Below, one piece after another: positions 9,487 through 24,604 of a stretch of DNA of 46,378 nucleotides (within the stretch, counting starts at the first letter, position 1; every line of letters begins with the position of its first letter). The position numbers were made by a program, and so were the translations under genes. Origin of the DNA: Thermoplasmatota archaeon (GTDB lineage: Archaea > Thermoplasmatota > E2 > UBA202 > JdFR-43); NCBI GenBank assembly GCA_029259015.1, contig JAPDJQ010000059.1:1-46378 (forward strand), in the 5' to 3' direction. Under the pieces are notes generated by a model that was given only the letters and a program-made list of their open reading frames with translations, had not been told where the DNA came from and searched no databases.

Positions 9487-9966
9487 ATGGCAGAAGAAGT
9501 GGAAGTTTTAGTTGAAGGCGGAAAGGCTACAGCAGGTCCACCAATAGGCCCAGCTTTAGGCCCTCTAGGCTTAAATGTGGTAGAAGTAGTGAAGAAAATA
9601 AACGAACTTACAAAAGATTTCCAGGGAATGAAAGTACCAGTTAAAATAATCGTTGACCCAGCAACAAAAAATTATGAGCTTAAGGTGGGCACACCACCAG
9701 CATCTGCGTTGATCATGAAAAGAGCGAATATTGAAAAAGGGTCATCAGATACAACTGCACCAGTAGGCAACATAACAATGAAAGATGTCATAGATATTGC
9801 AAAGATGAAAAAGAATGATTTAATGGGCAAAGATTTGAAGGCGAAAGCAAAAGAAATCGTAGGAACATGCGTTTCCATGGGAGTAACTATAGAAGGCATG
9901 AACGCAAAAGAAGTAATTAAAAAAATAGAAGAAGGAGAGTTCGACGAACTCTTTAAAGAGGATTGA
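9487..9966 (+). CDS. rpl11: 50S ribosomal protein uL11
   Basis: GGKATAGPPIGPALGPLG, GTPPASALI, EIVGTCVSMGV. Confidence 0.97.
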   Translation: MAEEVEVLVEGGKATAGPPIGPALGPLGLNVVEVVKKINELTKDFQGMKVPVKIIVDPATKNYELKVGTPPASALIMKRANIEKGSSDTTAPVGNITMKDVIDIAKMKKNDLMGKDLKAKAKEIVGTCVSMGVTIEGMNAKEVIKKIEEGEFDELFKED

Positions 9967-11923
9967 TTACGAAAATCTCTACCTCTTCACTCTTTTTATT
10001 TCCTGCATTGTCATATGCAATAACTTTTACTGTATGTGTTCCAAATACTTTTTCTTCCCATGTCCATTCATATGGAGTTGTGGTATCTTCAGCCTTATAT
10101 TCTCCATCGATATAGAATTCTACTTTTGCAATACCTGCAAGTTCATCTGTTGCCTGCGCAACTATTGTTATTTTTCCAATAATTATAGCTTTCTGGCCAA
10201 GTATTGGCAACACTTCTCTATCAAAAATGTAAAGCTTGCCAGGATGTGGTTTTTCAATAGCCAAGGAAGGCTTTGAATTATCAACAGTAAATTTGGCTGA
10301 AATATCTTTGCCTGTATTTCCTACTTCATCTACAGCAGAGATTTGTATTAAATATTCATTGCCATCTTCCAAGCCAGTTGTATTCCATAAATACTCGCCA
10401 TCATTTTCTGTGTTTCTAACTATTCTATGCCATGTTAGGCCATTGTTTGGGCTGTATTTTATTGTTATACCTGTTATCTCTCCATTGTCTGTTGCTTCCC
10501 ATTTTATTAAAACTTCTCCTCCTACAACTTCTCCTCCTACAGGAAATACAACTTCAACATGTGGAGGAGATAAATCTTCGATTTCAAATTGATATACGCT
10601 GCTAACATTTGAATTGCCTGAAGTGTCGATGGCATAAATGTAGAATTCATAGGTGCCAATTAAATTGTATGACCTGCTGGAATAATATATGCTATCTGTT
10701 TTATTCTGGAAAATGCTGAAGTTTTCGTAGCTTCCATCTGGATATGTTACATTAATGCGAACATCTTCAACAGCTACATTATCTGTTACGCTGGCAGAGA
10801 TGGTTAAATTTTTACCCACATCCTGTATAGCAGGGCTTGCTGCCACATCTTCTATTGCTGGAGGGATAAAGTCTCCTTCTATTATTTCAAATTGGTATGT
10901 GGCAGAAATAGCTTCATTTCCATTTACATCTCTTGCATATATAGAGAAGTTATATATGCCAGCAAGGGAATATGCCTGGTTGAAATAATATTTGCTGTTA
11001 TGCTGCATTATAAATTCATGGAAGGTTGCATCAGGATATGTTATATTCACTTTTACTTCAGCAACACCAAAATCATCTGTTACAGTGCATGAAATGTTGA
11101 CATATTCATTAATTTGCTGAACATCTGGATTTGCATTTATGTTGCTTATAACTGGCGGAGTATTATCAACTATACTAAATGAATAATTGAGCCATCCAAT
11201 ATTGCCAGCATCATCCATTGCCCTTATTCTGAATGTATAATCTCCTGCATTTAAGTTATAATAACTCTTTTGTTTGGTATAACCCCATGCACTCCAATCT
11301 GTATCATATCCATCGAGCATATATGAAAATGTTATGTTTTCCTCTGGTGATGTATCATCTGTTGCAGTCCATTCAAAATAGATGTCTCTATAGTTTATTA
11401 TTGCAGGAGGATAATCAATTAATGTTATGTCTGGAGGAGTGAAATCTCCCTCTTCAGAGACAGTAACACTTCCATTAATTATATTAACATTTGTACTCCC
11501 CTGAATAACAGCATTTTCAATATTTATATAAGATATACCAGCTGATATTGCTTGAAAAGTAATAATTGCAAGCGTTCCCTCTGTTGTTATATCCTCACTT
11601 GATGCACCTATAATGTATGTGATTGTGCCATTAACATTATCTATTTCTGCTACTCCAGGCAAATCCCCTAGCCAAATATCAAACATTCCTCCATTTTCAA
11701 CACTTATCGCCTGGAGTATGGATGGGTCAAACATAATGTCACATGCTGCTGACGAAATGGGCTCTACAGGGGTGATATTTATTTTCAGTGTAAAAGTTTC
11801 CCCTAAGCCCACAATTTTTTCTTGAGGGACTATTGAGATGGTGTTTAAATCTTCTCCTTTTGAATACCCTGCCAGAATAGAGATGAGTAAAATCGTTATG
11901 ACTATTCCAACCTTTCCTTTCAT
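9953..11923 (-). CDS. Secreted protein with N-terminal cohesin domain and tandem Ig-like domains
   Basis: Signal peptide; cohesin-like ISIVPQEKIV..GETFTLKINI....ISSAACDIMFDPSILQAISVENG...GTLAIITFQA (about 11460-11845); then a Y_Y_Y-like domain and several D..PP-linked Ig folds; no C-terminal TM. Confidence 0.75.
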   Translation of the reverse strand: MKGKVGIVITILLISILAGYSKGEDLNTISIVPQEKIVGLGETFTLKINITPVEPISSAACDIMFDPSILQAISVENGGMFDIWLGDLPGVAEIDNVNGTITYIIGASSEDITTEGTLAIITFQAISAGISYINIENAVIQGSTNVNIINGSVTVSEEGDFTPPDITLIDYPPAIINYRDIYFEWTATDDTSPEENITFSYMLDGYDTDWSAWGYTKQKSYYNLNAGDYTFRIRAMDDAGNIGWLNYSFSIVDNTPPVISNINANPDVQQINEYVNISCTVTDDFGVAEVKVNITYPDATFHEFIMQHNSKYYFNQAYSLAGIYNFSIYARDVNGNEAISATYQFEIIEGDFIPPAIEDVAASPAIQDVGKNLTISASVTDNVAVEDVRINVTYPDGSYENFSIFQNKTDSIYYSSRSYNLIGTYEFYIYAIDTSGNSNVSSVYQFEIEDLSPPHVEVVFPVGGEVVGGEVLIKWEATDNGEITGITIKYSPNNGLTWHRIVRNTENDGEYLWNTTGLEDGNEYLIQISAVDEVGNTGKDISAKFTVDNSKPSLAIEKPHPGKLYIFDREVLPILGQKAIIIGKITIVAQATDELAGIAKVEFYIDGEYKAEDTTTPYEWTWEEKVFGTHTVKVIAYDNAGNKKSEEVEIFVINPL

Positions 11924-11977
11924 TTTAATCCTCCTTAGTATGTAATATATAACTCTATTTAAATTTTCACAAATTAA

Positions 11978-12020
11978 AGAATAAAAAAATAATAAAAAGA
12001 GATGAAAAAAAGAAGAGAGA
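11978..12020 (-). terminator. Archaeal oligo-T terminator after the scaffoldin-like gene
   Basis: Minus strand reads TCTCTCTTCTTTTTTTCATCTCTTTTTATTATTTTTTT directly after the stop codon. Confidence 0.55.
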
Positions 12021-14603
12021 TTAGCTGCTCTTTGTTCTCTTCTTCCACACAGCCACTACTGCAACAGCTATTATTATTAGCACCACTATTATTATCAGAT
12101 AAAGCCATATGTTCACTTTTTCTTCAGTGACTTTAATCTGGAGTACTGTCTGATGTGTTGCCCCATCATTATCTATTACTGTTAGAGTTACATTGTATGT
12201 TCCTGCCTTAATATAGGCATGTGTTGGATTGATTTCATAACTTATGTTTCCATCACCGAAATTCCATGTGTAATTTACTATGTTGCCATCATCGTCAAAG
12301 GATAATGTGGCATTGAATTTTATTTCTTCTCTTATCTTTGGCTTATCTGGCTCATAAGTGAATTTTGCTACTGGCGCAACATTTGCTACTTCTATTATCT
12401 TTTGTGCTGTCTCAGTTGCTCCCTTATCATCTGTTACTGTTAACTTAACAATATATGTGCCATTATCTGCATACTTATGGGTTGGGTTCTGTTCATTGCT
12501 TGTTGTTCCATCTCCAAAGTCCCAGTGCCATGCAACAATCTCGCCATCCTCATCTGTTGATTGATCAGCAAATGTTATTGTATCCAAATCGGTTGGTTGC
12601 TGTGGAGAGAAACTGAAATCTGCTACAGGTGGTTTATTCTTTAATATTTCAAAAGTTACCTGATGTTGCACGCCTTCATTTCCTGCATTATCAACAGCAT
12701 AATATACTATGGTATGGGTTCCTTCAGAGCTTACAACATCACTTCCTGAATTTCCTGGGAATATCTGCCAGTTTCCTCCATCAAGTCTGTATCTAATTTC
12801 TTTTACTCCTGCAAGATTATCAGATGCCTGCAAAACAACTGTTACATCGCTCGTATATTTTCCATCTTCATATGTTCCTTGTAAGGTGTGCGTTGCTGTT
12901 GGCTTTGTTGTATCTACTGATACATCAAATTCATCAGATGCATTATTTCCTGCATCATCCCTTGCATAAAAGCTTATAGTATAGATTCCATCTGATAAAT
13001 TAAATGGCCCAGTATAATCCTGCCATGCTCCATTTACCTTGTACTTAAATTCTGCTAAATTGTCATCAAATGCTGATAATTCAACTGTAACTGTGCTTAC
13101 ATACCATCCGTTTTCTCCTAGGGTGCCCGTAATATTATATGAAAGAGTTGGCAATGTTTTATCTATCTTTATTGTTTCACTCTTCTCTGTCTCTGTATTT
13201 CCTAAATTATCCACTGCATAATAATAAAGAGTATGAATTCCATCTGCTGTTATATCAAATGCTCCTGTATATTCTGTCCAGTTTCCATCATCAATCTTAT
13301 AGTAGATTGCTCCTACGCCACTTCCATTTATATCAACTGCGGTTAAATTAACTGTAACTGTGCTTACATACCATCCGTTTTCTCCTAGGGTGCCAGTCAA
13401 TTCTATACTTGTTACTGGTGGAGTATTGTCGACATATACTGTTACATTATCAATTGGGCTTGTATTATTGAATTCATCTTCAGCGTAATATTCAATATAA
13501 TACATTCCTTCTTCTGGGAGATATATGATGGCGTTTGTATTTACTGCTTCACTCTGCCATCCTTGCCAGCTTCCATTCCATATGCGATAGTAAACAGTGT
13601 AATCATGGGCATCGGTTGCATTAATGTAAATAGGCGTTAAGGATGAAACCCAGTTGCTTCCATTATAATAAGGTGTACCAAACTCAAGTGTCACATCTGG
13701 AGGAGTTAAATCTGCCTCTAGAGTGGCATTTTGTAAAATTGAATAAAGATGTTCTCCATCAACATCTATAATATCCATGTTGGTAATGTTAATGTCTGTT
13801 ACTGCTGTTTGCAACGGCGTAAATTCTATTGTTGCTAAAGTGCCAGCATTTGTTACTCCTGGAGGAATTGGTGTCTGAATAGCAAATATACTCACGACAC
13901 CAGCAACATTATCTATGTTAGGAGTTAGAGTACTAAACAGCCCTCCATCAGTCACTCCAGTTACCTGGAAATAATTTGGATCAAAAGTAATGTCGAAGGT
14001 CATAATAGAGAGTTCGTTTCCATTGGGATCTACAGTAACGTCAAAGAGAGCTGTCTCATTTCCTATCAAATTATAAGCTGGCTCAATCGAAACATATACT
14101 GGATAATTTCTCACTTCAACAGTTGCATTATTTAAAGTTAAATCATATGGAGGTACCAAGCAGTCTCCGCTTGATAGATTTATGAATGCAGTTCCAACTT
14201 TTTCTTTTGCCTTAAAGGTGATTCTAGCAAAAACACCTCCTGAAACAGGTGTAATGTTTTCTCCAAGTGGAACCATTCCCCATATATCACTTATGGTACC
14301 GTTTATGTTGTCTATAGTACCGTTTGAAGCCAATGTATCAAATATATCTCCATTCTCAACCTTGATAGCCGTTAATAAAGAGGCATCAAATGTGAGCCAA
14401 CATTGCACAACGGTAATATTTTCTGCATCTACTACAATGTCCACAGTAAATGTATCATTGAAATAAACCGCCTGATGTGAAGGCAGAATACTCATTGTTG
14501 CTGTTCCATTTTCTCCATGTGAAACAGGTAAAACTAAGGAGAATAATAGAATAAAGGGAAGAGAGGCGATTATTGCTTTCCTTATGCTTTTCATTTTCAT
14601 CAT
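12021..14603 (-). CDS. Membrane-anchored scaffoldin-like protein: 2 cohesins, about 4 Ig-like repeats, 2 PKD domains, C-terminal TM
   Basis: Signal peptide; cohesin 1 (TFTVDIVV...QCWLTFDASLL...VENG...GVFARITFKA) and cohesin 2 (FDVTVDP...FDITFDPNYFQVTGVTDG...GTLATIEF); PKD motifs WHWDFGDG, YTWNFGDG; TM then KKRTKSS; AGGAGG before the ATGs at 14603/14600/14594. Confidence 0.8.
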   Translation of the reverse strand: MMKMKSIRKAIIASLPFILLFSLVLPVSHGENGTATMSILPSHQAVYFNDTFTVDIVVDAENITVVQCWLTFDASLLTAIKVENGDIFDTLASNGTIDNINGTISDIWGMVPLGENITPVSGGVFARITFKAKEKVGTAFINLSSGDCLVPPYDLTLNNATVEVRNYPVYVSIEPAYNLIGNETALFDVTVDPNGNELSIMTFDITFDPNYFQVTGVTDGGLFSTLTPNIDNVAGVVSIFAIQTPIPPGVTNAGTLATIEFTPLQTAVTDINITNMDIIDVDGEHLYSILQNATLEADLTPPDVTLEFGTPYYNGSNWVSSLTPIYINATDAHDYTVYYRIWNGSWQGWQSEAVNTNAIIYLPEEGMYYIEYYAEDEFNNTSPIDNVTVYVDNTPPVTSIELTGTLGENGWYVSTVTVNLTAVDINGSGVGAIYYKIDDGNWTEYTGAFDITADGIHTLYYYAVDNLGNTETEKSETIKIDKTLPTLSYNITGTLGENGWYVSTVTVELSAFDDNLAEFKYKVNGAWQDYTGPFNLSDGIYTISFYARDDAGNNASDEFDVSVDTTKPTATHTLQGTYEDGKYTSDVTVVLQASDNLAGVKEIRYRLDGGNWQIFPGNSGSDVVSSEGTHTIVYYAVDNAGNEGVQHQVTFEILKNKPPVADFSFSPQQPTDLDTITFADQSTDEDGEIVAWHWDFGDGTTSNEQNPTHKYADNGTYIVKLTVTDDKGATETAQKIIEVANVAPVAKFTYEPDKPKIREEIKFNATLSFDDDGNIVNYTWNFGDGNISYEINPTHAYIKAGTYNVTLTVIDNDGATHQTVLQIKVTEEKVNIWLYLIIIVVLIIIAVAVVAVWKKRTKSS
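13083..13394. repeat. Exact 45-bp direct repeat (13083-13127 and 13350-13394) encoding GTLGENGWYVSTVTV
   Basis: AACTGTAACTGTGCTTACATACCATCCGTTTTCTCCTAGGGTGCC occurs twice, 267 bp (89 codons) apart. Confidence 0.92.
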
Positions 14604-14617
14604 CCCTCCTTTAATGC

Positions 14618-17600
14618 TCAACCAGTCCATTTCAGTATTAGCATGTAGATATCATCTGCATTTATTACGCCGTCTTTGTTCAAATCTTCAGGTATCCATC
14701 CTGGGGTGCCTGTTTCCTCCCAGTGTAATATTATCTGGTACAGATCCATTACGTTCACTCTGCCATCTCCATTGATGTCCTCTGGTATTGGTGGTACATA
14801 GCAGCTTGCCTCAGCTGTTGGAGTTGTTGATTTGGCATTGCCTAGGTAGTCCTCTGCATATACATAGAACTCATAGTAGCCAGGCTTGTAATATGTTGGA
14901 TGTGGTGCATATATGAACTGCCATGTATAGCTGTCAACGTCTTCAACGCTTCCATATTCCATCCATGATGTCCATGTTACACCATCTTCGCTGTATCTGT
15001 AGTACAATGTCAACTTCTTCACTCCAACCACATTATCACTTGCAGTAACTGTTATGTTGAATGGCATTGTATCATTTCCTTCTATGGATATACTTGTTAC
15101 TGGAGCTGTATCATCGATTATGAACTTCTGCTTGTACTCATCTGTAATGTGTCCAAGCATGTCTGTTGCCTTGAAGAATATGTGATACAATGTTCCTTCA
15201 GCCAGTCCAAAGGCGGCAGGTGTAAATGAATGACTTGCTGTGTGTGCGCCGTCATAACTTGCTGTCTCATACCATGTTATGCCATCGAAGCTCCAGAATA
15301 TCTTGTCAATGCCTGCATCGTCTTCTTCTGGCATATCTGTTGCATTCAACCATATGAGAGTATCGCTTGTAATTGCATGTCCTATCTCTTCGCCAAGATT
15401 TATTTCAATGCATGGCTGTCCATATTCTTTGGTTATTACCGGTGGCTCAGTATCAGGTATTACCCAGCATTCTGCATCATATGTTCCGTGCTCGAATGGT
15501 GGCTGTTCTTCATTGGCGAGGCAATCATATGCAATTGACTTGAAGCGATACCATCCTGGTCCTTCTGGAGCATCAAATGAGAATGTCCAGTTCGGCACAT
15601 CATTTCTCAGATCCCATGGAACTTCATATGTTGCATATAGCTTCCAGTCTCCAAATGTTACATTGTTGGAGCTGTATGAATAATACACGTCAACCTTGCA
15701 TACACCTATTGGTCCAACTGCCTCGAATCCAAAGTCTTCAATGTCCACCACTGTTATATCAAATGGAACTTCTTCTCTCACATATGGAACTATGTCATCA
15801 ACTCTTGAAATTGGTGGCATTGCATCAACCCATAAGTGCTGCTTGCTTAGCTGGTAGTCTTCGACATGGCTTACGTTATCAACAGACCAGTGAAAGAGTT
15901 CAACTATTCCTGCATCCAAACTTGGATTGGATTCGAAGTAGTCTATGATATCATCATAGCCCATTATCTGGGCAGCCTCATCAACTGTAAACCAGTGCTT
16001 GCTTGTTGTGAATACTCCTGGATAATATGGCTGTTCAAAGGTATCGGCTCCATACTTCCAGAGGAGTATTGGATCCTCCTCCCAGAACTTGTACCATGTT
16101 TCATTCACGCCACTATCCCAGATGAAATTGTCTGTTCCATTGAGCCATATCTTTGTGCTTGGAGATACCCAGTGTATTACTTCTCCTCCCGCAATCTCCT
16201 GCTCAATAACTGGTTCGCTGAATTCTTTCTTGGTGCGTGGTGGTGTGCAGTCAATACATACATCCTGTTTCTGTTCGCCAATTGTCATGTTGTTGTAGTC
16301 ATACACCTCCCAGTGTATCTCATACTTGCCACATGGATCTCCATTAACGAGTTCTCCGAGATGTATCCATATTGCAAAGTAGTCATCCCAGTATCCTCCA
16401 TCATAGAATATTCCATCATATGGTGAGGAATCATACAATGAATATGCCCTCGTCCATGGAATTATTGGCTCCCAGTATCCAGCTCCTCCAAACACATCTC
16501 TTATCTTCAGTGTCCATACACCAGTGAAATCAATATCCTCAACATGGTACCATCCATCATCGTACATGGTGTCGTATGGAGATGTCCAATATACATACAT
16601 GTAATCAGAAACGCTCCAGTTGCCGTCTCCGTTGGTATCTATCCAGTCATAGATATAGCCAGCTTCTTCTCCTTCGATATACACTGTTGCTCCGTAATAT
16701 AGTGTTGGTAACTCATTTGTTAACAACTGTATCTCAACCTCATTTGATACCCATCTCCAGACAGTGTAATCAATATACCATATTCCAGTCTGACACTCTG
16801 TATTATTTGGCAGGTCTGTTGCATTTATTATGAACCATGTACAGTTCTGGAAGTATATTGTGTTGTCTGGGCCGTAATAAACATTACCATTACTCACTTC
16901 AAACTCTATATCTGTTACAGGTGCTTCATCATCTACGCCAACATGCCATACATTTGGCTCTTCAGTGTTGCACAAGTCATCCTTGCTGAAGTAATACAGC
17001 CAGTGCTCGCATCCTTCTGTGAAGTTGAATGGTTCTGTGTATTTCATCCACCAGTAACCATCAATTTCATCTGCATAACTCGATACGTTTATATCTCCGC
17101 CCCAGATAGCACCAGGTGTTTCAGCAGTTGGATAGTATTCATACTCTCCACTGCTCTCATTATACCATACCCATCTGTAGTATGTTGCATTGCTCCAGTT
17201 GTATGGATATATGCATGGCTCTGTGCCATAATGAATTGCTGTAAGATTGATGTAATCATTTATGCATATGACAGATGGAAGAGAACCTCTGCCATAACCA
17301 TCGTAATAGTCATTCTTCGGTATTTCTGGATGGTCCGCCCATTCAACTGTTAGCTCTGTATATGGAGCTGTTCCATCAACATACCAGCGCTCGTGGAATA
17401 TCTCTGTTCTGTGGCATACATTGTCTTTGGCAAAGTAATACAAGTCGTGTATACATTCCTCATTGAATATTATGTCTACCTCATCGTCATATACAACATA
17501 CCACCAGTAATCAGTTATATTTTCGTCGGTATATCCATATCTTTCTGCTAATTCTTTTCCATGTACAATCTCATCATATCCAGTTCCATATCCGTCTCCT

Positions 17601-20600
17601 TGTGGTGGATATGGATATTCCTCTCCGCCAGTCTCATATCTCCAGAATATTGCCTCAACACCTGCATCACACTCGCTATCTATTGGTTGATCTATAACTT
17701 CAAGATGTATTGGTGCTCCTTCTCTCAGGAAGCCTAATGATGTGATGTTGATGTTATCAACAGCCCAATACTCATTATAATAACCTGAGCCAGTGAATCC
17801 GTCTCCATAGTTTGTAGTGAATCTAAATGCTATGTAAACATCCTTACCAGCATAATCCCATAATGAGATATCTACTGTTCCTGATTCACTGTAATTACTT
17901 GCATCCCAACTCCTGAGCACGGTAAAGTCAGCTGGATCTGTTCCTGTTGTCGATATTAGCACCTCTCCTTTTCCTCTGTTGCAATACCATTCATTATAGA
18001 ATGTCAGATTGCTGAATTTCGGCAAGTTTGGAATCAATGGGCTAATGAGCCATTCATCCTGCTCGCCATGCCATGGCATAATTAAAGCAGCGCTGTAACG
18101 GAATAGATTTGAATCGGGATGTGACCATCTATCCCATGTCTGATAATCTGTATCGTTGATGGCATCATAGTCTCCATAACTCTTTTCCATCCAGCCAGCT
18201 GGTGGGAAGCTTCGTTCAAATCCATCTTCAAATGTTGTCTCTGTTATTTCTCTTATTTCAACCTTTACGTCGTCAACATACCAGCCACCGTCTTTAACAG
18301 AATTGTCACTGTAAAATCTATATCTTATATACACCGTTTGTCCAATATAGCCACTTATATCAACGAATTCCTGTACCCAATCTCTGCTTCCAGTATATGT
18401 TGCAAGTGTTGTCCATGTTGTTCCGTCTGTGCTTATCTCAACATAACCATAATCGGCATCCTCCTCCATGTCATATGTATGCCAGAACATGAGCATTGCT
18501 TTCTTGCCAGTATATGTTGCATCTGTTAAATCAATTGCTGGAGATATTAGGGCATCGTTCATGCAATTGAGGTACATACTGCTTGAGTCATCTCCACACC
18601 ACCATGAATGATTATACGAATGATAATCAGTATCCACAATATGCCATCTGCTTGTTTCAAGCATTTCTCCGACCCAATTGCTCATATCGGGACTGCCAAC
18701 AGTTCCGAAATCATCAAAGAAGAATGGAGTTGTTGAATTGGAAACATTCACACTATCGATGAATACTCCATTTGCAGGCACTGCATCATCATCGCTGACG
18801 AAACGGAATCTTATCCATACGGTATCATTTCCAATATAATCTGATAAATCAATTGATTCCCATTCCCATGACTGATCTGCTGTAAATGTTGCCAAAATAT
18901 CCCAGTTACTGCTATCATTGCTTGCCTCAACATATAGTGTATCTCCACTCACATCCATCCATAATGTAAAGTTAAGCCAGACTGTATCAGACGGATCTAA
19001 AGATGAGAGATCTATCGGATTAGCAATCGTCAATGTATCATTCCAGTTGCAACCATACTGTCCAAAGCCATTATAGTTTGGCAAACTTCCGTCATAACAG
19101 TTGACTGCTGGTGCAGGCGGAGTATCCAGATAAACAGGTACTCTATTCACTGCAGTCCAATAGCTACCAGTAACTGTCAAGTCCTCAATATCCCATGCCA
19201 TGCTATCTTCAATGTCATCCTCAAATGGTGTAGCTATGCGATGTATGCCGCCGATCCACACATCATCAATGTATATCTCTCCGCTTATAACATGGAATCC
19301 TATGTATATTTCCTGTCCAGCATATGCAGATAAATCAACCTCTACTCTTCTATACATGGAATCTGTGAATGTACCAGATGTCCATAGCTGAGTGACGAAA
19401 GCAGTTGTCTCTGTCTGATCTGGATCAGTTGATACCTTTACTTCGAATTCTCCATTACCCATATAATAGAATGTGAGGTTGCCATCTTGTGGAACTGTAA
19501 TACGTGGGCTAATAAGCCATCCATCCTCACCATAAGCACAATATCTACCAGAACGAGGCATATTATCCCAGTATGGCCACCAGTCACTTATGCGATACCA
19601 GTCTCCTACCACTGCCCAATCAGTAAATGGAACTTCGAAGTCCTCAAATAATGACTGTGTTGCATTACCAATTGCACCATGCTCCGGCAATGTTTCTTCT
19701 ATAATTGGTGGAGAAGCATCAACAAAGTATACCTGATGATGTACAGTGCTGTTATGACATGCTCTATCCTTAGCCCAGTAATACAAATCATGTCTGCATT
19801 CTTCATCAAATGATATGTTTGTCTCATTGTCATATACAACATACCACCAGTATCCTGTTATGTTCTCATCATATCCATATATGGCGAACTGGCTACCATT
19901 TATTGCTCCATATTCTCCCTCCTGTGGATATTCTGTGTCATTCCACACATATCTCCAGAATATTGCCTCTATACCAGATGGACACTCGCCTGGATCCTCT
20001 GCGGTAAGTGTAATATTTACGCCTGCCTTCAGATAATAGGTGACATTTTCAATTTCAACCCACCAGTGCCATATACCTTCTCTCAAGAATTCCCAGTTAT
20101 CATAAACATAAACATATACGTAGTGGGTACTTTGTGGAGAAACTTCTACAGTAAATGTTATCGAGTCTAAATTGGTTCCATTTTCAAGCGTTATACCGTC
20201 ATCGCCCTCTACTTCTTCTATATGGAAGGTGAGTATAGCTGCCTTGTTTGGATCGTTGTTAGTGATAGTGAATCTTGCATAAGTATACTTATCAATGTAA
20301 TTGCCCGCCTGTTGCTGCATCCATCCGCCACCATACCAGTCTGTCCATTCATCAATGACTTTGAAGAAACCTTCATACTTATTTGAGCCATCATCATGCC
20401 ATCGATCAACTTCTATTTCTACTGGTGTATAATATCCATGTTCTGGATGTTTCTTATAAACTACTGGGTTGTATTCATCAACATGATATACCTGCATATA
20501 TACTGGAGTATGATGACACACGTTATCCTTAGCCCAGTAATACAGCCAGTGTATGCATTCCTCACGGAAGTGCACACCGATGCTATCGTCATACACATAC

Positions 20601-23600
20601 CAGAGATAATGACCACTGAAGTTTGTCCGTATTTCTTCATCATCGTAATAATCTCTGATATCTACAACCTGTCCATATTTTGATACATTATCGCTCTCAT
20701 TTGCAGGATGCCATACGTCATTGTAGTAATAGCCAAAGTATATTCCTTCTATGCCAGAGGCACATGGATTGTCTGTATATGACATTATCTGGAATTTCCA
20801 GTCAAAATCTGTTTTTTCTTCTCCGCTTATCCATGCATGCCCTCTCGTATATTTATCTTCTGTTGCAAAATACCATGATGCATTTGATGGTGGATTTCCA
20901 TGTGCTTCAATATAATATGTTTCGCCTGGTGTAACTGCAATTCCTGGTTCAAACGTGAATGTTACCCAGTCCTCGCCTGTTCCGCTTAAATGCTTGCTTG
21001 CGCTTCCAATTACTGCAAAGCTTGCATCATGTATGTAAATGGTTACGTCCACATCTCCTATCCATTTCAGATACAACGCTGTTGCATTTATATAACTTGC
21101 ATTTGGCATAAATGTTTGTGCATCCCATGGCCATATTACACCTGTGGTATAATTCTGCAATGTATCCAACTCATTTCCCTCTGTCTGGGCTTGATCCACA
21201 ACAACCAGTTTTTCTGGTGTATCAACAGCAGTTAAGTTAATTCTTGCACATTTCTGTATAAATGGCACGGGATCAACAATCAAATCCCAGGTGACATTTT
21301 CAATAGTCCAGTTATGCCACTCGTTGGTTTCAGTATCATTTAGCATTATCTTTGTTCCAATATCCAATGGTGCGCTTGACCATGTGAGATTATACATATT
21401 ACTGAATGTTGGATAAACTTCATGCCATAATGAACCAAGTGGATTCGACTTGAGGATACTGAAATCGGATGTCCAGGAACCATCATAATAGCCAGTAAAC
21501 TCCACATATTTTGTCTTATTGAGTGTCTCATTATATATCTCAAGTGTTATTGTCATATTCTTTATGAGGTAAAGACGATGTACTCCATATTGAGTGTCCA
21601 CGAGTTCTATATAATCTCCATCATCTGCTATGTTGTTTCCGTTACTATCAACATAGCTATCAAATTTTGGATAATAGGTGCCCTCATATTCTCTTCCGAA
21701 TTCATCAGTTGGATAGAACTGTGTCCAGTTTAAGTAAGCAATCCACTCCTCCAATGTAGGAGTGGTCCATGGGTTAGCTTCTGCAGGCCAGTTATTAGGA
21801 TGCAGATATATTATAGGTTCATCCTTATAGCATACTGGATGTTCCTTGTAAACCTCTGGGTCATAAGCATCAACATATATGTCAACCTTCGTTATATTAT
21901 CACTTGTATTAATTGTATTATCCAGCCAGTCTGAAGCTTCATAGAAGTAATATATTGAATGCAAGCATTCCCTATTAAATCTTAACGGAACCGATGCAGT
22001 TCTTGGCACAATCTTCCACCATAACTCACCATTTATTTCAACAACCTCTCCATATTCATCATCACTGTAATTTGCTGGATGCTTTTCTTTCTCTGGAGTT
22101 GTATAATTCCAGTATTCATATCTCCAGTAGAATGTGAAATCTCTCCATCCAACTGCACATTCTGGCTCATCTGTCAAGTTAAGCCAGAATGTTTTGCCCG
22201 CCCTTACAAACTGCTTTCCTGTCTCCTCATCATAATAGAAGCCATGCACATCTGGATATTCTATATGCAATTCTGGCGGGCTATCATCTACATAATGAGT
22301 CTGATTTATAATGCGTACATTACCAAGCAAATCCTCTGCTCTTATCTGCAATATATGCTTGCATTCTTCATGGAACTGTATCTTTGTGAATTCAACTGTA
22401 TCATTAATTGCAACATACCAGTATTTGCCATCTACATAGGTTATGTTATAATTACCACAATACATGTCCTTGCCATCTACTGGATGCCATGTATCATTGA
22501 ACCATATTCTGTAAAGTAGATTCTTCACTCCTACTCCTCCCATGCACCATTCATCCCATGTACTCAGAACTAATGTTGCCTGAGTAGTAAGCCATGTTCC
22601 ATTTAAGCCATCATGCTCTTCTCCCACACTATATTCTGTATATTCCATTGGATAGAAGTATGGATATATTGGATAATACTCTATCTTGAAGGCAAAATCA
22701 CATGAATAATTAACTTCTCCATCTACAATTGCGTATCCGCCTGCATATGGATTGCTTTCGTTGTAATACCAGTGTAAATCAGCATATGATTTTACAGTAA
22801 GCCAGTATGTTGCACCATGCTCCACATATAGACGCTCTGTCAAATGGAACTGTATCCATCCATCTACCTCGTCATCTATTTGTTTAACTTCTGAAGATGC
22901 CAACAGATTTCCTTCGTCATCCCATATCTCCACCCATGTATCATTTGTCTCAAACACTACATCTCCTGAACCAACTAACTTAACGCTTACAGCATCAATA
23001 TAACTCCATGGAGCAGCGAAACTCTGATTATCATCCCACATTGACCCTCCTTCTCTAAGATTTCTTATAGAAACAAATTTTCCATCTAGGGTTTGTTCTA
23101 GCGCTACTATCTTCTCAATATCTTTTCTTATGGCTGGTGGTGTATTATCTACCCAGTGCTTCTGCTTAGTAGACATATTGTTGCCAACATAATCCATTGC
23201 CCAGTAGTGTATCTCATGGCAGCAATCATATTCCAAGAATGTAACATTTGAGATATAACCTACTCTTGGATCCAAATCTCCTTTTTCATTATCAATAATA
23301 ACTACCTTCTCATATCTTGTTGTATTCCATTGCTCGCTTTCATTAGTACAATTTTCCTTCCACCATATCTCATAGCCAAACTTCCATACTCCTGCTCCGC
23401 CTCCGCAGCCAACATCACTTATATTGAACCAGATTGGTGTGCGATTTGTTACCCAAGTTGCATTTCCATAAATGCCTGGCTGCTTTGGTTCTCCAATCTC
23501 TTTAACTATTACAGGTGGTGAACAATCAACGGCGATATCAATATCAAATGGTCCATTGTGATTGCCTAGATAATCATCCATCTCCCATATTATTTCATGG

Positions 23601-24604
23601 AAGCATTCCTCTCCAATAAACTGATTTATATCCACAGATATCCTGCCAACTGTCTCGTCCAAATCGTATACGCCATTATCCATTACACTAACTTCAGTAA
23701 TCAAATCAAAAGGTCCAGGCTGATCTGGATTCCACCATATTGAGAAGTTAAGCCAAGCTGCACCGCTTGCATCATCTGTTACATTAATCCACATTGGTGT
23801 GGTACAATTTATTGCAGGGAATCCCTGAATTGTGTAATTCGGCTCACCAAATACTGGTGCCGTATATGGAGGAGGTGTTGTATCATATCCTGCACCCGCA
23901 TCTGCAGTCGAAGGAGCGGCTTCAGTATTACCTGCTGTATCATTTGCTATACTATAAAACTCATAAAATCCTTCTCCATCTGGAAAATCAAACGAGAATG
24001 ACCATCCATCACTTCCATCGGTGTCTTTTGCAAAGAATGCCCATGCACCCCATGTTGCATTATCTGTTGAATATCTATACCACAGAGAAACATTTGCCAA
24101 AGCATAATTATCACTTGCTGTAACTGTTATTGTAATAGGTGCATTATTAGTCCAATATGGTACAATAGGATCAACAGTCGATGTTGGAGGTGTGGTGTCT
24201 TGTACTACAAAGGTACCTGATGACGAGCTCCATCCTGTACCATCATATGTATTTACAGTATAGGAATATGTTCCTAATGGGTCTGGATATTGATAAGTTC
24301 TATTATAATACCATATAGTGTAATATGTATTAATGGGTATAGGATTCATTGAAAAATTACCCAATAAGGTTCCATCTGGATAATAAATTTCAACCCATGC
24401 TTCAGTAGCATCGCTTATATTCGCAGTTATGTTATTATATCCTGGAACTTCTACTGGATCTGGTGCATCATCTACCGAATTTATTGTAGGTTGTGCCATT
24501 ACATAAATTACAAACGCTACTATTACAGCAACAGCTATTGCCATTATCCCCATTACCAGCTTCTTATTTCTAATACCCTTATCCTTCATACTTATTCTAC
24601 TCAT
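14618..24604 (-). CDS. Giant (3328 aa) secreted adhesin-like protein with Cys-rich Ig-like repeats, cleaved-adhesin/MAM-like domains and C-terminal dockerin
   Basis: N-terminal hydrophobic signal; repeated F.EEC.H..YY.AKD motif; adhesin-like domains (LISP.I...VDLSAYAGQEIYIGF; GWYVDDVKV); C-terminal duplicated Ca-binding loops DINGDGRVNVMDL and DLNKDGVINADDI; many N-x-S/T sequons. Confidence 0.85.
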   Translation of the reverse strand: MSRISMKDKGIRNKKLVMGIMAIAVAVIVAFVIYVMAQPTINSVDDAPDPVEVPGYNNITANISDATEAWVEIYYPDGTLLGNFSMNPIPINTYYTIWYYNRTYQYPDPLGTYSYTVNTYDGTGWSSSSGTFVVQDTTPPTSTVDPIVPYWTNNAPITITVTASDNYALANVSLWYRYSTDNATWGAWAFFAKDTDGSDGWSFSFDFPDGEGFYEFYSIANDTAGNTEAAPSTADAGAGYDTTPPPYTAPVFGEPNYTIQGFPAINCTTPMWINVTDDASGAAWLNFSIWWNPDQPGPFDLITEVSVMDNGVYDLDETVGRISVDINQFIGEECFHEIIWEMDDYLGNHNGPFDIDIAVDCSPPVIVKEIGEPKQPGIYGNATWVTNRTPIWFNISDVGCGGGAGVWKFGYEIWWKENCTNESEQWNTTRYEKVVIIDNEKGDLDPRVGYISNVTFLEYDCCHEIHYWAMDYVGNNMSTKQKHWVDNTPPAIRKDIEKIVALEQTLDGKFVSIRNLREGGSMWDDNQSFAAPWSYIDAVSVKLVGSGDVVFETNDTWVEIWDDEGNLLASSEVKQIDDEVDGWIQFHLTERLYVEHGATYWLTVKSYADLHWYYNESNPYAGGYAIVDGEVNYSCDFAFKIEYYPIYPYFYPMEYTEYSVGEEHDGLNGTWLTTQATLVLSTWDEWCMGGVGVKNLLYRIWFNDTWHPVDGKDMYCGNYNITYVDGKYWYVAINDTVEFTKIQFHEECKHILQIRAEDLLGNVRIINQTHYVDDSPPELHIEYPDVHGFYYDEETGKQFVRAGKTFWLNLTDEPECAVGWRDFTFYWRYEYWNYTTPEKEKHPANYSDDEYGEVVEINGELWWKIVPRTASVPLRFNRECLHSIYYFYEASDWLDNTINTSDNITKVDIYVDAYDPEVYKEHPVCYKDEPIIYLHPNNWPAEANPWTTPTLEEWIAYLNWTQFYPTDEFGREYEGTYYPKFDSYVDSNGNNIADDGDYIELVDTQYGVHRLYLIKNMTITLEIYNETLNKTKYVEFTGYYDGSWTSDFSILKSNPLGSLWHEVYPTFSNMYNLTWSSAPLDIGTKIMLNDTETNEWHNWTIENVTWDLIVDPVPFIQKCARINLTAVDTPEKLVVVDQAQTEGNELDTLQNYTTGVIWPWDAQTFMPNASYINATALYLKWIGDVDVTIYIHDASFAVIGSASKHLSGTGEDWVTFTFEPGIAVTPGETYYIEAHGNPPSNASWYFATEDKYTRGHAWISGEEKTDFDWKFQIMSYTDNPCASGIEGIYFGYYYNDVWHPANESDNVSKYGQVVDIRDYYDDEEIRTNFSGHYLWYVYDDSIGVHFREECIHWLYYWAKDNVCHHTPVYMQVYHVDEYNPVVYKKHPEHGYYTPVEIEVDRWHDDGSNKYEGFFKVIDEWTDWYGGGWMQQQAGNYIDKYTYARFTITNNDPNKAAILTFHIEEVEGDDGITLENGTNLDSITFTVEVSPQSTHYVYVYVYDNWEFLREGIWHWWVEIENVTYYLKAGVNITLTAEDPGECPSGIEAIFWRYVWNDTEYPQEGEYGAINGSQFAIYGYDENITGYWWYVVYDNETNISFDEECRHDLYYWAKDRACHNSTVHHQVYFVDASPPIIEETLPEHGAIGNATQSLFEDFEVPFTDWAVVGDWYRISDWWPYWDNMPRSGRYCAYGEDGWLISPRITVPQDGNLTFYYMGNGEFEVKVSTDPDQTETTAFVTQLWTSGTFTDSMYRRVEVDLSAYAGQEIYIGFHVISGEIYIDDVWIGGIHRIATPFEDDIEDSMAWDIEDLTVTGSYWTAVNRVPVYLDTPPAPAVNCYDGSLPNYNGFGQYGCNWNDTLTIANPIDLSSLDPSDTVWLNFTLWMDVSGDTLYVEASNDSSNWDILATFTADQSWEWESIDLSDYIGNDTVWIRFRFVSDDDAVPANGVFIDSVNVSNSTTPFFFDDFGTVGSPDMSNWVGEMLETSRWHIVDTDYHSYNHSWWCGDDSSSMYLNCMNDALISPAIDLTDATYTGKKAMLMFWHTYDMEEDADYGYVEISTDGTTWTTLATYTGSRDWVQEFVDISGYIGQTVYIRYRFYSDNSVKDGGWYVDDVKVEIREITETTFEDGFERSFPPAGWMEKSYGDYDAINDTDYQTWDRWSHPDSNLFRYSAALIMPWHGEQDEWLISPLIPNLPKFSNLTFYNEWYCNRGKGEVLISTTGTDPADFTVLRSWDASNYSESGTVDISLWDYAGKDVYIAFRFTTNYGDGFTGSGYYNEYWAVDNINITSLGFLREGAPIHLEVIDQPIDSECDAGVEAIFWRYETGGEEYPYPPQGDGYGTGYDEIVHGKELAERYGYTDENITDYWWYVVYDDEVDIIFNEECIHDLYYFAKDNVCHRTEIFHERWYVDGTAPYTELTVEWADHPEIPKNDYYDGYGRGSLPSVICINDYINLTAIHYGTEPCIYPYNWSNATYYRWVWYNESSGEYEYYPTAETPGAIWGGDINVSSYADEIDGYWWMKYTEPFNFTEGCEHWLYYFSKDDLCNTEEPNVWHVGVDDEAPVTDIEFEVSNGNVYYGPDNTIYFQNCTWFIINATDLPNNTECQTGIWYIDYTVWRWVSNEVEIQLLTNELPTLYYGATVYIEGEEAGYIYDWIDTNGDGNWSVSDYMYVYWTSPYDTMYDDGWYHVEDIDFTGVWTLKIRDVFGGAGYWEPIIPWTRAYSLYDSSPYDGIFYDGGYWDDYFAIWIHLGELVNGDPCGKYEIHWEVYDYNNMTIGEQKQDVCIDCTPPRTKKEFSEPVIEQEIAGGEVIHWVSPSTKIWLNGTDNFIWDSGVNETWYKFWEEDPILLWKYGADTFEQPYYPGVFTTSKHWFTVDEAAQIMGYDDIIDYFESNPSLDAGIVELFHWSVDNVSHVEDYQLSKQHLWVDAMPPISRVDDIVPYVREEVPFDITVVDIEDFGFEAVGPIGVCKVDVYYSYSSNNVTFGDWKLYATYEVPWDLRNDVPNWTFSFDAPEGPGWYRFKSIAYDCLANEEQPPFEHGTYDAECWVIPDTEPPVITKEYGQPCIEINLGEEIGHAITSDTLIWLNATDMPEEDDAGIDKIFWSFDGITWYETASYDGAHTASHSFTPAAFGLAEGTLYHIFFKATDMLGHITDEYKQKFIIDDTAPVTSISIEGNDTMPFNITVTASDNVVGVKKLTLYYRYSEDGVTWTSWMEYGSVEDVDSYTWQFIYAPHPTYYKPGYYEFYVYAEDYLGNAKSTTPTAEASCYVPPIPEDINGDGRVNVMDLYQIILHWEETGTPGWIPEDLNKDGVINADDIYMLILKWTG

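What the first reader, a model, noticed from the sequence alone, without database searches (positions are those of the whole stretch)
9953..24604. Archaeal cellulosome-like cohesin-dockerin system displaying a 3328-aa non-glycolytic giant protein
Seen: three adjacent same-strand secreted-protein genes. The giant ends in a dockerin (DINGDGRVNVMDL...DLNKDGVINADDI, about 14621-14785) and has no C-terminal TM. The next gene begins within about 15 nt and encodes two N-terminal cohesins, an Ig/PKD stalk and a TM anchor, which is scaffoldin architecture. The third gene has one cohesin and no TM. Known: cohesin-dockerin pairs assemble clostridial cellulosomes, and isolated pairs have been described in Archaeoglobus fulgidus. 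Inferred: the giant docks on a membrane-anchored scaffold, up to two copies per scaffold or mixed with other dockerin proteins. No glycoside hydrolase or protease catalytic motif was recognised in it, so this looks like a modular adhesion or substrate-capture surface complex.
Basis: partly seen in the sequence, partly recalled or inferred. Interest (0 to 1): 0.88.

Follow-up and report, generated by a model that had tools for sequence, protein, structure and literature searches.

The report
Archaeal giant protein with docking anchor
A deep-sea archaeon encodes its largest protein with a small docking module at its tail, directly followed by a membrane-anchored protein carrying the matching sockets, so it probably hangs a huge sticky protein on its surface by the plug-and-socket trick that bacteria use for cellulosomes.

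Summary
On the minus strand lie a 3328-aa secreted protein ending in a Pfam-significant dockerin, then a protein with two cohesins, an Ig/PKD stalk and a C-terminal membrane helix. Its start lies 14-23 nt after the giant's stop, behind an AGGAGG. A third, secreted one-cohesin protein follows. The cohesin pair models confidently (pLDDT 92) and matches solved cohesins.

The host is a small-genome Thermoplasmatota MAG of the thermophilic JdFR-43 lineage. The block giant, anchor, cohesin protein, L11, FtsZ recurs in both main families of its order. In its family, 35 of 79 dockerins are followed by a cohesin gene. Dockerin and cohesin divergence co-vary beyond the rest of the anchor protein.

No catalytic domain was found. 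The giant is a chain of beta-sandwich modules plus four MAM/choice-of-anchor-J modules.

Binding itself is not shown: the one complex prediction gave no verdict. This is not a cellulosome (no glycoside hydrolase, no CBM). It is a non-cellulosomal cohesin-dockerin display system, a kind already known in Archaeoglobus and ANME archaea, here in an undescribed, order-wide form with a transmembrane anchor and a giant cargo. Interest is moderate.

The parts
14618..24604 (-). Giant gene, 3328 aa. It is the largest ORF of the assembly: acidic, rich in Trp and Tyr, with 91 NxS/T sequons, and built as a chain of beta-sandwich modules ending in a dockerin.
   Evidence: homologues of 1966-3876 aa, almost all from Thermoplasmat* MAGs,
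24479..24568 (-). N-terminal hydrophobic segment (residues 13-42). Probably a cleavable Sec signal, with V-M-A before Q37; an uncleaved signal-anchor is not excluded.
   Evidence: hydropathy; a small-x-A site follows the h-region in the giant and in five homologues read; no signal-peptide predictor was available
17765..19618 (-). Four MAM-like / choice-of-anchor-J modules (about residues 1663-2280). The Pfam InhA-like MAM match is at residues 2020-2128 (nt 18221-18547).
   Evidence: NF038128, 110.5 bits, 3 stretches; self-BLAST
14840..15124 (-). Ig-like module directly before the dockerin (residues 3161-3255). The second dockerin protein of the genome (C33) matches most of it together with the dockerin.
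   Evidence: weak Big_13; C33 is 43% identical over residues 71-260 of the last 260, i.e. from giant residue 3139
14636..14782 (-). Dockerin with two Ca-loop plus helix repeats. The protein ends in W-T-G, which is invariant in 16 aligned sequences.
   Evidence: (best solved match 2y3n_B, E 1.1e-11)
14604..14617 (-). Gene junction: the giant's stop, then AGGAGG (14605-14610), then the start codons of the anchor gene. The two genes are likely co-transcribed and translationally coupled (inferred).
12021..14603 (-). Anchor (scaffoldin-like) gene. Its parts are a signal peptide, a cohesin dyad, OmpL47-type Ig-like stalk modules (nt 12651-13697), two PKD domains (nt 12129-12638), a TM helix (nt 12033-12125) and a short basic tail.
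   Evidence: full-length orthologues
14178..14471 (-). Cohesin 1 of the anchor.
13776..14036 (-). Cohesin 2 of the anchor.
11924..12020 (-). A 97-nt spacer with T-runs, an A/T-rich TATA-like box and AGGAGG before the third gene. The third gene probably has its own promoter (read from the sequence, inferred).
9953..11923 (-). Third gene, 656 aa: secreted, one N-terminal cohesin (nt 11456-11803), Y_Y_Y, Ig-like and Big_7 modules. It has no TM helix and no dockerin.
   Evidence: a P0003-like gene follows the anchor in 11 of 11 related loci with DNA there

Best explanation
This is a non-cellulosomal cohesin-dockerin surface-display module of a thermophilic Thermoplasmatota archaeon.

Proposed mechanism:
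1. The giant is exported by a Sec signal and probably N-glycosylated.
2. It is held on the cell by its C-terminal, Ca-dependent dockerin, which plugs into one of the two cohesins at the tip of the product of the next gene.
3. That anchor protein stands on the membrane on an Ig/PKD stalk fixed by one C-terminal helix.
4. The giant, about 25-30 beta-sandwich modules plus four MAM/choice-of-anchor-J modules and no enzyme domain, then acts as a long binding or coat protein.
5. The second cohesin, and the secreted one-cohesin protein of the third gene, can take a second giant or the genome's other dockerin protein.

Shown: the modules, their order, their fold (cohesins), their conservation and their co-variation. 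Inferred: secretion, cleavage, binding, partner choice, stoichiometry and the adhesive role.
For: Modules score above the curated Pfam cut-offs. The cohesin dyad model has pLDDT 92 and pTM 0.73. Its best structural matches are the ScaA cohesin dyad 3l8q (E 6e-15) and single cohesins at TM 0.73-0.79 and rmsd 2.5-2.9 A, including archaeal 2xdh.

Both dockerin Ca loops are intact. D18, D22, G23, D29, D49, G54 and D60 are invariant in 16 sequences.

The giant's stop and the anchor's start are 14-23 nt apart, with AGGAGG between them.

In 18 of 20 related loci with downstream DNA, a dockerin-ending ORF is followed at once by a cohesin-first ORF. All 13 complete ones end in a TM helix (these loci were picked through hits to these genes, so the sample is biased).

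The unbiased count comes from all Pfam matches in the 25 genomes of the family. Of 79 dockerins, 33 have a cohesin within 700 nt downstream on the same strand. Two more giants have one in the next gene.

The block giant, anchor, P0003-like gene, L11, FtsZ is kept in 9 of 11 loci, from families f1 and f2. The other 2 end before that point.

Co-variation: in one same-genus pair the anchor stalk is 81% identical, but cohesins 1 and 2 are 30% and 31% and the dockerin has switched type (60%). In a trio with 81-83% identical dockerins the cohesins stay at 45-63%. The partial Mantel r of dockerin against either cohesin, given the stalk, is 0.54; 10 and 6 of 5000 permutations reach it, with 10 taxa.

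Archaeal cohesin-dockerin pairs are reported to bind specifically, and the A. fulgidus pair is used in designer cellulosomes (PMC9012536 and PMC6394049, passages).

No catalytic family or motif was found in the giant. No catalytic family appears in the precomputed Pfam lists of its close homologues (rows P0004-P0020); among the distant rows, one (P0021) lists a single Pfam family I did not identify, and I did not check the function of every family listed in the other distant rows.
Against: No binding has been measured or confidently predicted.

Adjacency is not a rule: 38 of 79 dockerins of the family have no cohesin next to them, among them this genome's second dockerin gene.

The genome holds six cohesins in four genes but only two assembled dockerins, so the partner is ambiguous.

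The dockerin and the cohesin dyad are contiguous in the DNA, so one recombination event would swap both. The co-variation may therefore reflect linkage rather than selection for fit, and it rests on 10 related taxa.

The 21-residue hydrophobic core at the giant's N-terminus is long for a signal peptide and might stay in the membrane.

The adhesive role rests on module types only. Most of the giant has no family match.
Confidence: 0.62

Rival explanations
1. Envelope reading. The giant and the anchor are the outer and stalk parts of the cell's main surface layer: a canopy protein held on a membrane stalk, as recalled for SlaA/SlaB of Sulfolobales. Cohesin-dockerin is the joint. The pair is then structural rather than an adhesin.
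For: The gene is the largest in a 1.4-Mb assembly. The three-gene cluster takes about 1% of it (14,652 of 1,406,633 bases; my arithmetic).

It sits in a fixed place beside L11, Spt5 and FtsZ in two families of the order. Near full-length matches to a 620-position internal segment occur in 11 of 39 genomes of the order, and in none of the 158 other genomes of the class.

The protein is acidic and rich in sequons, as archaeal surface-layer proteins are (the comparison is recalled). ANME-2c proteins combine S-layer and dockerin domains (PMC9012536, passage).
Against: No S-layer family matched. There is no evidence of lattice formation or of high expression. Two cohesins per anchor and an extra soluble cohesin protein are not needed for a simple canopy-stalk pair. 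Some relatives carry two paralogous giants (G006, G009).
Confidence: 0.18
2. Two-point or cell-to-cell tether. The N-terminal segment is an uncleaved anchor, so the giant is already in the membrane. Its dockerin then reaches a cohesin on the same cell (forming a loop) or on a neighbouring cell (adhesion between cells).
For: The only hydrophobic stretch, residues 13-42, has a core of about 21 residues, which is TM-like in length. A comparable N-terminal segment is present in homologues.
Against: A small-x-A site follows the hydrophobic core in the giant and in five homologues read (VMA, TKA, TEA, AEA, TTA, TQA). This fits signal-peptidase cleavage. A dockerin would add little to a protein that is already anchored.
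Confidence: 0.1
3. The neighbours are not partners. The giant's dockerin binds another cohesin (the third gene's, its paralogue on contig C85, or the C49 protein) or none. The anchor's cohesins serve the other dockerin proteins.
For: There are six cohesins for two assembled dockerins. The two dockerins are 50% identical and both end in WTG, so they may share a specificity. In the family, 38 of 79 dockerins work without an adjacent cohesin.
Against: The tight junction and the order-wide adjacency. Joint type-switching of dockerin and cohesins in close relatives. A second, independent pair of the same layout in relatives: an approximately 840-aa protein ending in a dockerin, followed after 1 nt by a two-cohesin TM protein.
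Confidence: 0.12
4. A degradative multi-enzyme complex (a protein- or polymer-degrading 'some') in which the giant or its partners are enzymes.
For: The lineage is reported as a degrader of detrital protein (recalled, not checked here). A papain-family protease gene follows the second dockerin gene. A possible C25-like protein lies in the window (lead only).
Against: Neither dockerin protein has a catalytic family match. The papain-like protease has no dockerin. There is no HExxH, GxSxG or similar motif in the giant.
Confidence: 0.05

Closest known systems
Bacterial cellulosome anchoring (for example Clostridium/Acetivibrio scaffoldins with cohesin dyads; solved structures 3l8q, 2vn5, 1g1k)
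   Same: A dockerin on the cargo's C-terminus, tandem cohesins on a non-catalytic surface-bound protein, and two symmetric Ca-loop/helix repeats in the dockerin. The cohesin fold matches.
   Different: No glycoside hydrolase cargo and no CBM. The anchor is a single transmembrane helix, not SLH domains or a sortase signal (that these are the bacterial anchors is from the PMC9012536 passage). Only two dockerins are assembled in the genome. The cargo is one giant non-enzymatic protein. The host is an archaeon.
Non-cellulosomal cohesin/dockerin proteins of Archaeoglobus fulgidus (cohesin structure 2xdh)
   Same: Archaeal, thermophilic, not linked to cellulose. The cohesin fold matches at TM 0.79. 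Binding of the archaeal pair is reported and exploited (PMC9012536 and PMC6394049, passages).
   Different: According to the review cited in PMC9012536 (Peer 2009, not held), archaeal proteins then known lacked multi-cohesin scaffoldins. Here there is a cohesin dyad on a TM stalk, a giant cargo, and a conserved operon-like pair.
ANME archaeal dockerin/cohesin protein sets (PMC9012536, section 32, passages)
   Same: Extracellular archaeal networks of cohesin and dockerin proteins. These include scaffoldin-like proteins and S-layer proteins with dockerins, proposed to attach proteins to the cell's outside.
   Different: A different phylum. The cargoes named there are mostly substrate-binding proteins of ABC transporters, and scaffoldin-like proteins carry up to five cohesins plus a dockerin. 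No giant-plus-TM-anchor gene pair is described in the passages read. Its supplementary lists could not be opened.
Dockerin-type giant proteins of Omnitrophota (bioRxiv 10.1101/2023.11.21.568195, passages)
   Same: Very large extracellular proteins of uncultured prokaryotes that carry dockerin-like modules.
   Different: Those are bacterial, over 10,000 aa, and carry many dockerin/thrombospondin repeats along the chain. Here there is one terminal dockerin and a dedicated cohesin anchor next door.
Two-part archaeal surface layers (SlaA/SlaB type; recalled, not tested)
   Same: It would work alike: a large outer protein held by a membrane-anchored stalk of beta-sandwich modules.
   Different: No sequence relation was found and the joint is different. 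This is a resemblance of design only.

Membership tests
Cohesin (Pfam PF00963) | Profile score above the curated cut-off | tested here: met
   Anchor 51.8 bits in two stretches and third gene 42.5 bits, against a cut-off of 24.1. All three modules were found again in the six-frame genome search.
Cohesin (Pfam PF00963) | Flattened beta-sandwich (jelly-roll) fold of about 140 residues | tested here: met
   AF2 model of residues 38-312 of the anchor: pLDDT 92, all-beta, two modules. Foldseek finds 3l8q (cohesin dyad) at E 6e-15 and single cohesins at TM 0.73-0.79, rmsd 2.5-2.9 A. The third gene's cohesin was not modelled.
Cohesin (Pfam PF00963) | Binds a dockerin | not testable with these tools
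   Needs a binding assay. The one complex prediction gave no verdict (see Tried and rejected).
Dockerin type I (Pfam PF00404) | Profile score above the curated cut-off | tested here: met
   33.6 bits against 22.9. A profile of 16 orthologues finds dockerin 2y3n_B at E 1.1e-11, followed by calmodulins and further dockerins.
Dockerin type I (Pfam PF00404) | Two tandem segments of about 22 residues, each a Ca-binding loop (D-x-N/D-x-D-G...D) followed by a helix | tested here: met
   Read in the translation. The loop Asp and Gly are invariant in 16 sequences. The two segments are identical at 10 of 20 positions (my count). The helices were not modelled.
Cellulosome | Dockerin-bearing glycoside hydrolases or other plant-polymer enzymes | tested here: not met
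   Only two dockerin genes were found in the assembly, by Pfam and by a lineage profile. Neither has a glycoside-hydrolase family. The assembly is 86% complete.
Cellulosome | Scaffoldin with several cohesins and a carbohydrate-binding module | tested here: not met
   Two cohesins are present but there is no CBM family match in the anchor.
Non-cellulosomal cohesin-dockerin surface display | Exported dockerin protein plus a surface-anchored cohesin protein in one genome | tested here: met
   N-terminal signal-like segments on all three proteins and a C-terminal TM helix on the anchor; modules as above. Export and surface location are inferred.
Archaeal S-layer protein | Match to an S-layer family; lattice formation; very high expression | tested here: inconclusive
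   No S-layer family matched in Pfam or NCBIfam. Lattice formation and abundance cannot be tested here.

The most novel reading that the evidence does not exclude
The giant and its stalk are the principal cell coat of this lineage of Thermoplasmatota, with a cohesin-dockerin joint as the link between canopy and membrane stalk.

The joint is encoded as one contiguous cassette across the gene boundary: dockerin, about 14 nt, then the cohesin dyad. This cassette is swapped or diversified as a unit between close relatives (three dockerin types; same-genus cohesins only 30% identical beside an 81% identical stalk). That could happen, for instance, under pressure from viruses or neighbours that use the coat as a receptor.

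If so, this would be a new way of building and varying an archaeal envelope.
Probability: 0.18. Interest if true: 0.75.

Novelty: new variant of a known kind. Interest (0 to 1): 0.5.

Why it matters
The JdFR-43 and Thermoprofundales-related archaea are widespread in marine sediments and vents, are uncultured, and their cell surface is unknown. This genome has about 1.4 Mb assembled at 86% completeness. It spends about 1% of that assembly on this one cluster, and the cluster is kept in place across an order.

If the pair binds, it gives three things:
- a natural, probably thermostable cohesin-dockerin pair with at least three specificity types in close relatives, useful for protein-assembly tools;
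- a handle (antibody or tagged cohesin) to label and enrich these cells;
- a testable model of how such archaea hold very large proteins on their surface, possibly to grip particles or polymers that they feed on.

It also extends multi-cohesin anchoring proteins to a further archaeal phylum.

Tried and rejected
1. Complex prediction. The anchor's cohesin dyad (alignment of 12) was folded against the dockerin (alignment of 16). ipSAE was 0.16 and 0.18, under the mark of 0.32, and controls were not run. The tool's verdict is 'no answer', so I use it neither for nor against binding.

2. AF2 model of giant residues 885-1500 with 8 orthologues. Mean pLDDT was 58.7. Its Foldseek matches have TM of 0.2 or less against the query and rmsd above 20 A for nearly all. 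They are scattered jelly-roll accessory domains, viral capsids and insecticidal toxin domains. I rejected them as meaningless.

3. ESM Atlas on giant residues 900-1135 gave no usable hit. Two earlier tries failed on length and on frame.

4. Expression. Two metatranscriptome runs of one sample hold short contigs on parts of all three genes and on the flanking housekeeping genes. X15 laid 24 pieces and X20 laid 16, with depth in 21 and 14 of 30 bins. Depths are low and similar to the DNA runs of the same sample. The tool warns that DNA can be present in such libraries, and no silent stretch was available as a control. This is compatible with transcription but does not show it.

5. Habitat. 20 runs from 14 studies hold the stretch or part of it, 9 with half of the words or more. 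They are labelled sediment, seawater, hydrothermal vent and marine metagenomes. Only four runs of one sample were laid.

6. Catalytic motif scan of the giant found none.

Peer 2009 is not held.

8. I considered and rejected a recent transfer or island. GC is 0.35-0.41 in the cluster against 0.33-0.42 around it, and the neighbourhood is conserved.

9. I considered and rejected an assembly artefact for the giant. It has no stop in 3328 codons, and orthologous frames run from 3206 aa (cut by the fetched stretch) to 3836 aa.


Full report
WHAT IS THERE

The window is contig C3 of a 1.41-Mb assembly of 134 contigs, 86% complete. Neighbouring genes are archaeal housekeeping genes: GINS51, S-adenosylhomocysteine hydrolase, FtsZ, Spt5, and ribosomal proteins L11 and S2. 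Records holding the closest relatives of the second gene are titled Thermoplasmatales archaeon JdFR-43 (96% identity), an uncultured Thermoplasmatales archaeon and a Thermoplasmata archaeon. One passage of PMC9585477 equates JdFR-43 with a thermophilic subgroup B of or near Thermoprofundales.

Three ORFs lie head to tail on the minus strand: 14618-24604 (3328 aa), 12021-14630 (869 aa) and 9953-11923 (656 aa).

THE MODULES

The giant ends in a Pfam dockerin at residues 3275-3323, scoring 33.6 bits against a cut-off of 22.9. Both Ca-binding loops are readable in the translation. The loop residues are invariant in an alignment of 16 sequences, all of which end in W-T-G. A profile of that alignment finds the solved dockerin 2y3n_B at E 1.1e-11, followed by calmodulins and further dockerins, as expected for an EF-hand-like pair.

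The second protein has two cohesins (51.8 bits against 24.1), four OmpL47-type Ig-like barrels, two PKD domains and one C-terminal hydrophobic helix. The third has one cohesin (42.5 bits), Y_Y_Y and Big_7 modules, and no helix beyond its signal-like N-terminus.

An AF2 model of the cohesin pair, built with 12 orthologues, has pLDDT 92 and pTM 0.73. Its best structural matches are the type II cohesin dyad 3l8q (E 6e-15) and single cohesins at TM 0.73-0.79, including the Archaeoglobus fulgidus cohesin 2xdh.

THE GIANT

- It is acidic (D+E 16.3%, K+R 5.0%) and rich in Trp (4.8%) and Tyr (8.2%). It has 91 NxS/T sequons and a single hydrophobic stretch at residues 13-42.
- Self-comparison shows four recurring module families along the whole chain. 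One family makes up four MAM-like / choice-of-anchor-J modules at about residues 1663-2280.
- Pfam on ten overlapping 400-aa pieces adds only weak Big_13, DUF4082 and DUF5017 hits.
- No catalytic family or simple catalytic motif is present.
- Its homologues form 22 clusters among 5.8 billion proteins. The named ones are nearly all from Thermoplasmat* MAGs and are called hypothetical or choice-of-anchor-J proteins; one partial row is labelled Thermotogae and one weak row Parvarchaeota. The close homologues (rows P0004-P0020) carry only adhesin-like or carrier-type families; among the distant rows, P0021 lists a single family (PF01658) that I did not identify, and I did not check every family in the other distant rows.
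- It is the largest ORF of the assembly.
- The hydrophobic N-terminus is followed by a small-x-A site in the giant and in five homologues. I read this as a cleavable signal, but no predictor was available.

THE JUNCTION

The giant's TGA (14618-14620) is followed by AGGAGG (14605-14610) and by in-frame ATGs at 14603, 14600 and 14594. The two genes are thus 14-23 nt apart and probably translated from one message (inferred). Before the third gene lies a 97-nt spacer with T-runs, a TATA-like box and its own AGGAGG.

CONSERVATION

Every one of 41 related genomes has matches to the anchor, mostly through PKD modules. Full-length orthologues (55-63% identity) occur in several genera.

I examined 21 related loci with a dockerin-ending ORF. 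One had no downstream DNA. In 18 of the other 20, the next ORF on the same strand starts with cohesins. All 13 complete ones end in a hydrophobic helix. The two exceptions are this genome's contig C33 and one locus of G026. These loci were reached through hits to these very genes, so I also made an unbiased count.

The unbiased count uses all Pfam matches in the 25 genomes of the family, which give 81 dockerin rows. I dropped two: a duplicate stretch, and one row below the cut-off. That leaves 79 dockerins and 104 cohesins.
- 33 dockerins have a cohesin within 700 nt downstream on the same strand.
- 2 more giants have one in the next gene, 1525 and 1894 nt away.
- 6 have a cohesin 16 nt upstream in the same frame (fused Coh-Doc proteins).
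- 38 have neither.
Nineteen genomes have at least one pair.

A P0003-like gene follows the anchor in 11 of 11 loci that reach that far. L11 and FtsZ follow in 9 of those 11; the other two end first. These loci come from families f1 and f2.

Near full-length matches to a 620-position internal segment of the giant occur in 11 of 39 genomes of the order, counting this one. Four more genomes have partial matches: two lie at contig ends and I did not check the positions of the other two. None of the 158 genomes of other orders of the class has such a match; those show only single-module matches inside other very large ORFs. The last 260 residues match at 44-70% identity over their full length, or as far as the contig or locus reaches, in 15 of 38 other genomes of the order. 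Many misses are assembly breaks inside these repetitive genes. For example, the same-genus scaffold orthologues start or stop at contig ends.

CO-VARIATION

The dockerins fall into three sequence types that do not follow the genus. I used the C-terminal half of the anchor as a within-protein control.
- One same-genus pair has an 81% identical stalk. Its cohesins 1 and 2 are only 30% and 31% identical, and its dockerins are of different types (60%).
- A trio of one genus has stalks at 77-78%, dockerins at 81-83% and cohesins at 45-63%.
- Across 10 taxa, the partial Mantel correlation of dockerin with cohesin identity, given stalk identity, is 0.54 for either cohesin. It is reached by 10 and 6 of 5000 permutations.

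This fits co-adapted partners. But the dockerin and the dyad are contiguous in the DNA, so a single recombination would move both. The taxa are also few and related.

THE REST OF THE GENOME

Pfam and a lineage profile find only two dockerins.

The second closes a 1242-aa protein on contig C33. That protein has an FG-GAP-type propeller, DUF11 repeats and the same Ig-plus-dockerin end, 43% identical over 190 residues. The gene after it is a papain-family protease with PKD domains and no cohesin.

There are six cohesins in four genes: the two in the window, a 5'-cut two-cohesin protein on C49, and a 3'-cut paralogue of the third gene on C85. In relatives, the C49-type protein follows an approximately 840-aa fn3/PKD protein that ends in a different dockerin, 1 nt away. 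So a third dockerin gene is probably missing at that contig edge. Either way, the 'cargo with dockerin, then TM protein with cohesins' layout occurs at least twice independently.

In the class, cohesins occur in 87 and dockerins in 81 of 197 genomes. They are nearly universal in this order: cohesin f1 23/24, f2 12/13, f3 1/1; dockerin f1 22/24, f2 11/13, f3 1/1. Two genomes of another family have 31 and 29 dockerin matches.

HOW IT MOST LIKELY WORKS

The giant is exported and glycosylated, and its dockerin plugs, with Ca2+, into a cohesin at the tip of the membrane-anchored stalk. The second cohesin and the soluble one-cohesin protein offer further sockets for a second giant or for the C33 protein, whose dockerin is 50% identical. 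The giant's module types (MAM/choice-of-anchor-J, Ig-like barrels, jelly-rolls) suggest binding rather than catalysis.

Shown: modules, fold, order, conservation and co-variation. Inferred: export, cleavage, binding, partner, stoichiometry and function.

The one complex prediction gave no verdict and counts neither way. RNA-library contigs of one sample touch all three genes, but they cannot show transcription.

COMPARISON WITH WHAT IS KNOWN

This is not a cellulosome: the enzyme and CBM features were tested and not met. It belongs with the non-cellulosomal cohesin-dockerin systems. Passages of PMC9012536 report the following:
- cohesin and dockerin domains occur in many non-cellulolytic bacteria and archaea;
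- archaeal pairs bind specifically;
- archaea then known lacked multi-cohesin scaffoldins;
- ANME genomes have scaffoldin-like proteins with up to five cohesins, dockerin-bearing substrate-binding proteins, and S-layer proteins with dockerins.

The A. fulgidus pair is used as a working pair (PMC6394049, one passage). Dockerin-rich giant proteins are described in Omnitrophota (bioRxiv 10.1101/2023.11.21.568195, passages), but they have many internal repeats and no dedicated anchor.

What I did not find in print is this system: a giant cargo plus a TM-anchored cohesin dyad plus a soluble cohesin protein, kept order-wide in a Thermoplasmatota lineage.
- The two Thermoprofundales genome papers show 0 occurrences of dockerin or cohesin in their main text (listing).
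- The only papers in the twelve rows printed (of 60 that matched at least two terms) that combine dockerin with MBG-D or Thermoplasmatota terms are a viral-community paper and its preprint. There the dockerins belong to an ANME-related contig (passages).

VERDICT

This is a new variant of a known kind, of moderate interest. The boldest reading still open is that this is the lineage's cell coat, joined to its stalk by a swappable cohesin-dockerin cassette.

Noticed in passing
window 1715-4984 (-): A 1089-aa protein with a signal-like N-terminus and a C-terminal TM helix. It has no Pfam, NCBIfam or PDB sequence match. Its ESM Atlas neighbours include archaeal clusters that carry Peptidase_C25 (score 0.92, 169 shared features, a lead only). 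It may be a divergent gingipain-like surface protease.
   Followed up: partly
L009 (G000 contig C33) 4687-8415 (-) and 2645-4627 (-): The genome's second dockerin protein is 1242 aa, with an FG-GAP-type propeller, two DUF11 repeats and an Ig-plus-dockerin end. A papain-family C1 protease with PKD and Big_7 modules follows, its first ATG 60 nt downstream (the stop-to-stop frames overlap). That protease has neither cohesin nor dockerin. Its C-terminal approximately 180 aa resemble the end of the window's third protein (33% identity).
   Followed up: partly
L010 (G000 contig C49) 1-2679 (+): A 5'-cut protein with two cohesins, four PKD domains, a TM helix and a cytoplasmic Cys-rich tail. The tail gives a sub-threshold RING-finger match (22.7 bits against a cut-off of 27.3). 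A zinc-finger tail on a cohesin anchor could link the surface to the inside. In relatives the gene upstream is an approximately 840-aa fn3/PKD protein ending in another dockerin type (L045 200-2704).
   Followed up: partly
L011 (G000 contig C85) 4142-4756 (+); window 11315-11441: A paralogue of the third gene, about 52% identical over the aligned first 200 residues including the cohesin. The contig ends in 127 bases identical to the window, so an exact repeat broke the assembly here.
   Followed up: partly
family f1 genomes G019 and G024 (for example G019:C48:2546-3085, G024:C43:9367-9909): Six proteins carry a cohesin 16 nt upstream of a dockerin in one frame (fused Coh-Doc adaptors). G019 alone has 13 dockerin and 12 cohesin matches.
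   Followed up: no
class-level genomes G069 and G108 (family f4): These genomes have 31 and 29 dockerin matches and 10 cohesin matches each. That is far more than in the window's order and suggests elaborate cohesin-dockerin networks elsewhere in this class.
   Followed up: no
window 5847-6284 (-): A Sir2-family ORF of only 145 aa that covers profile positions 1-125 of 180. It may be truncated or split.
   Followed up: no
L029 (G013:C35) and L030 (G018:C21) anchor genes: In one genus the anchor protein is 1342-1706 aa long and carries about 490-610 extra residues before the cohesin dyad. The socket is therefore not always at the very tip.
   Followed up: no
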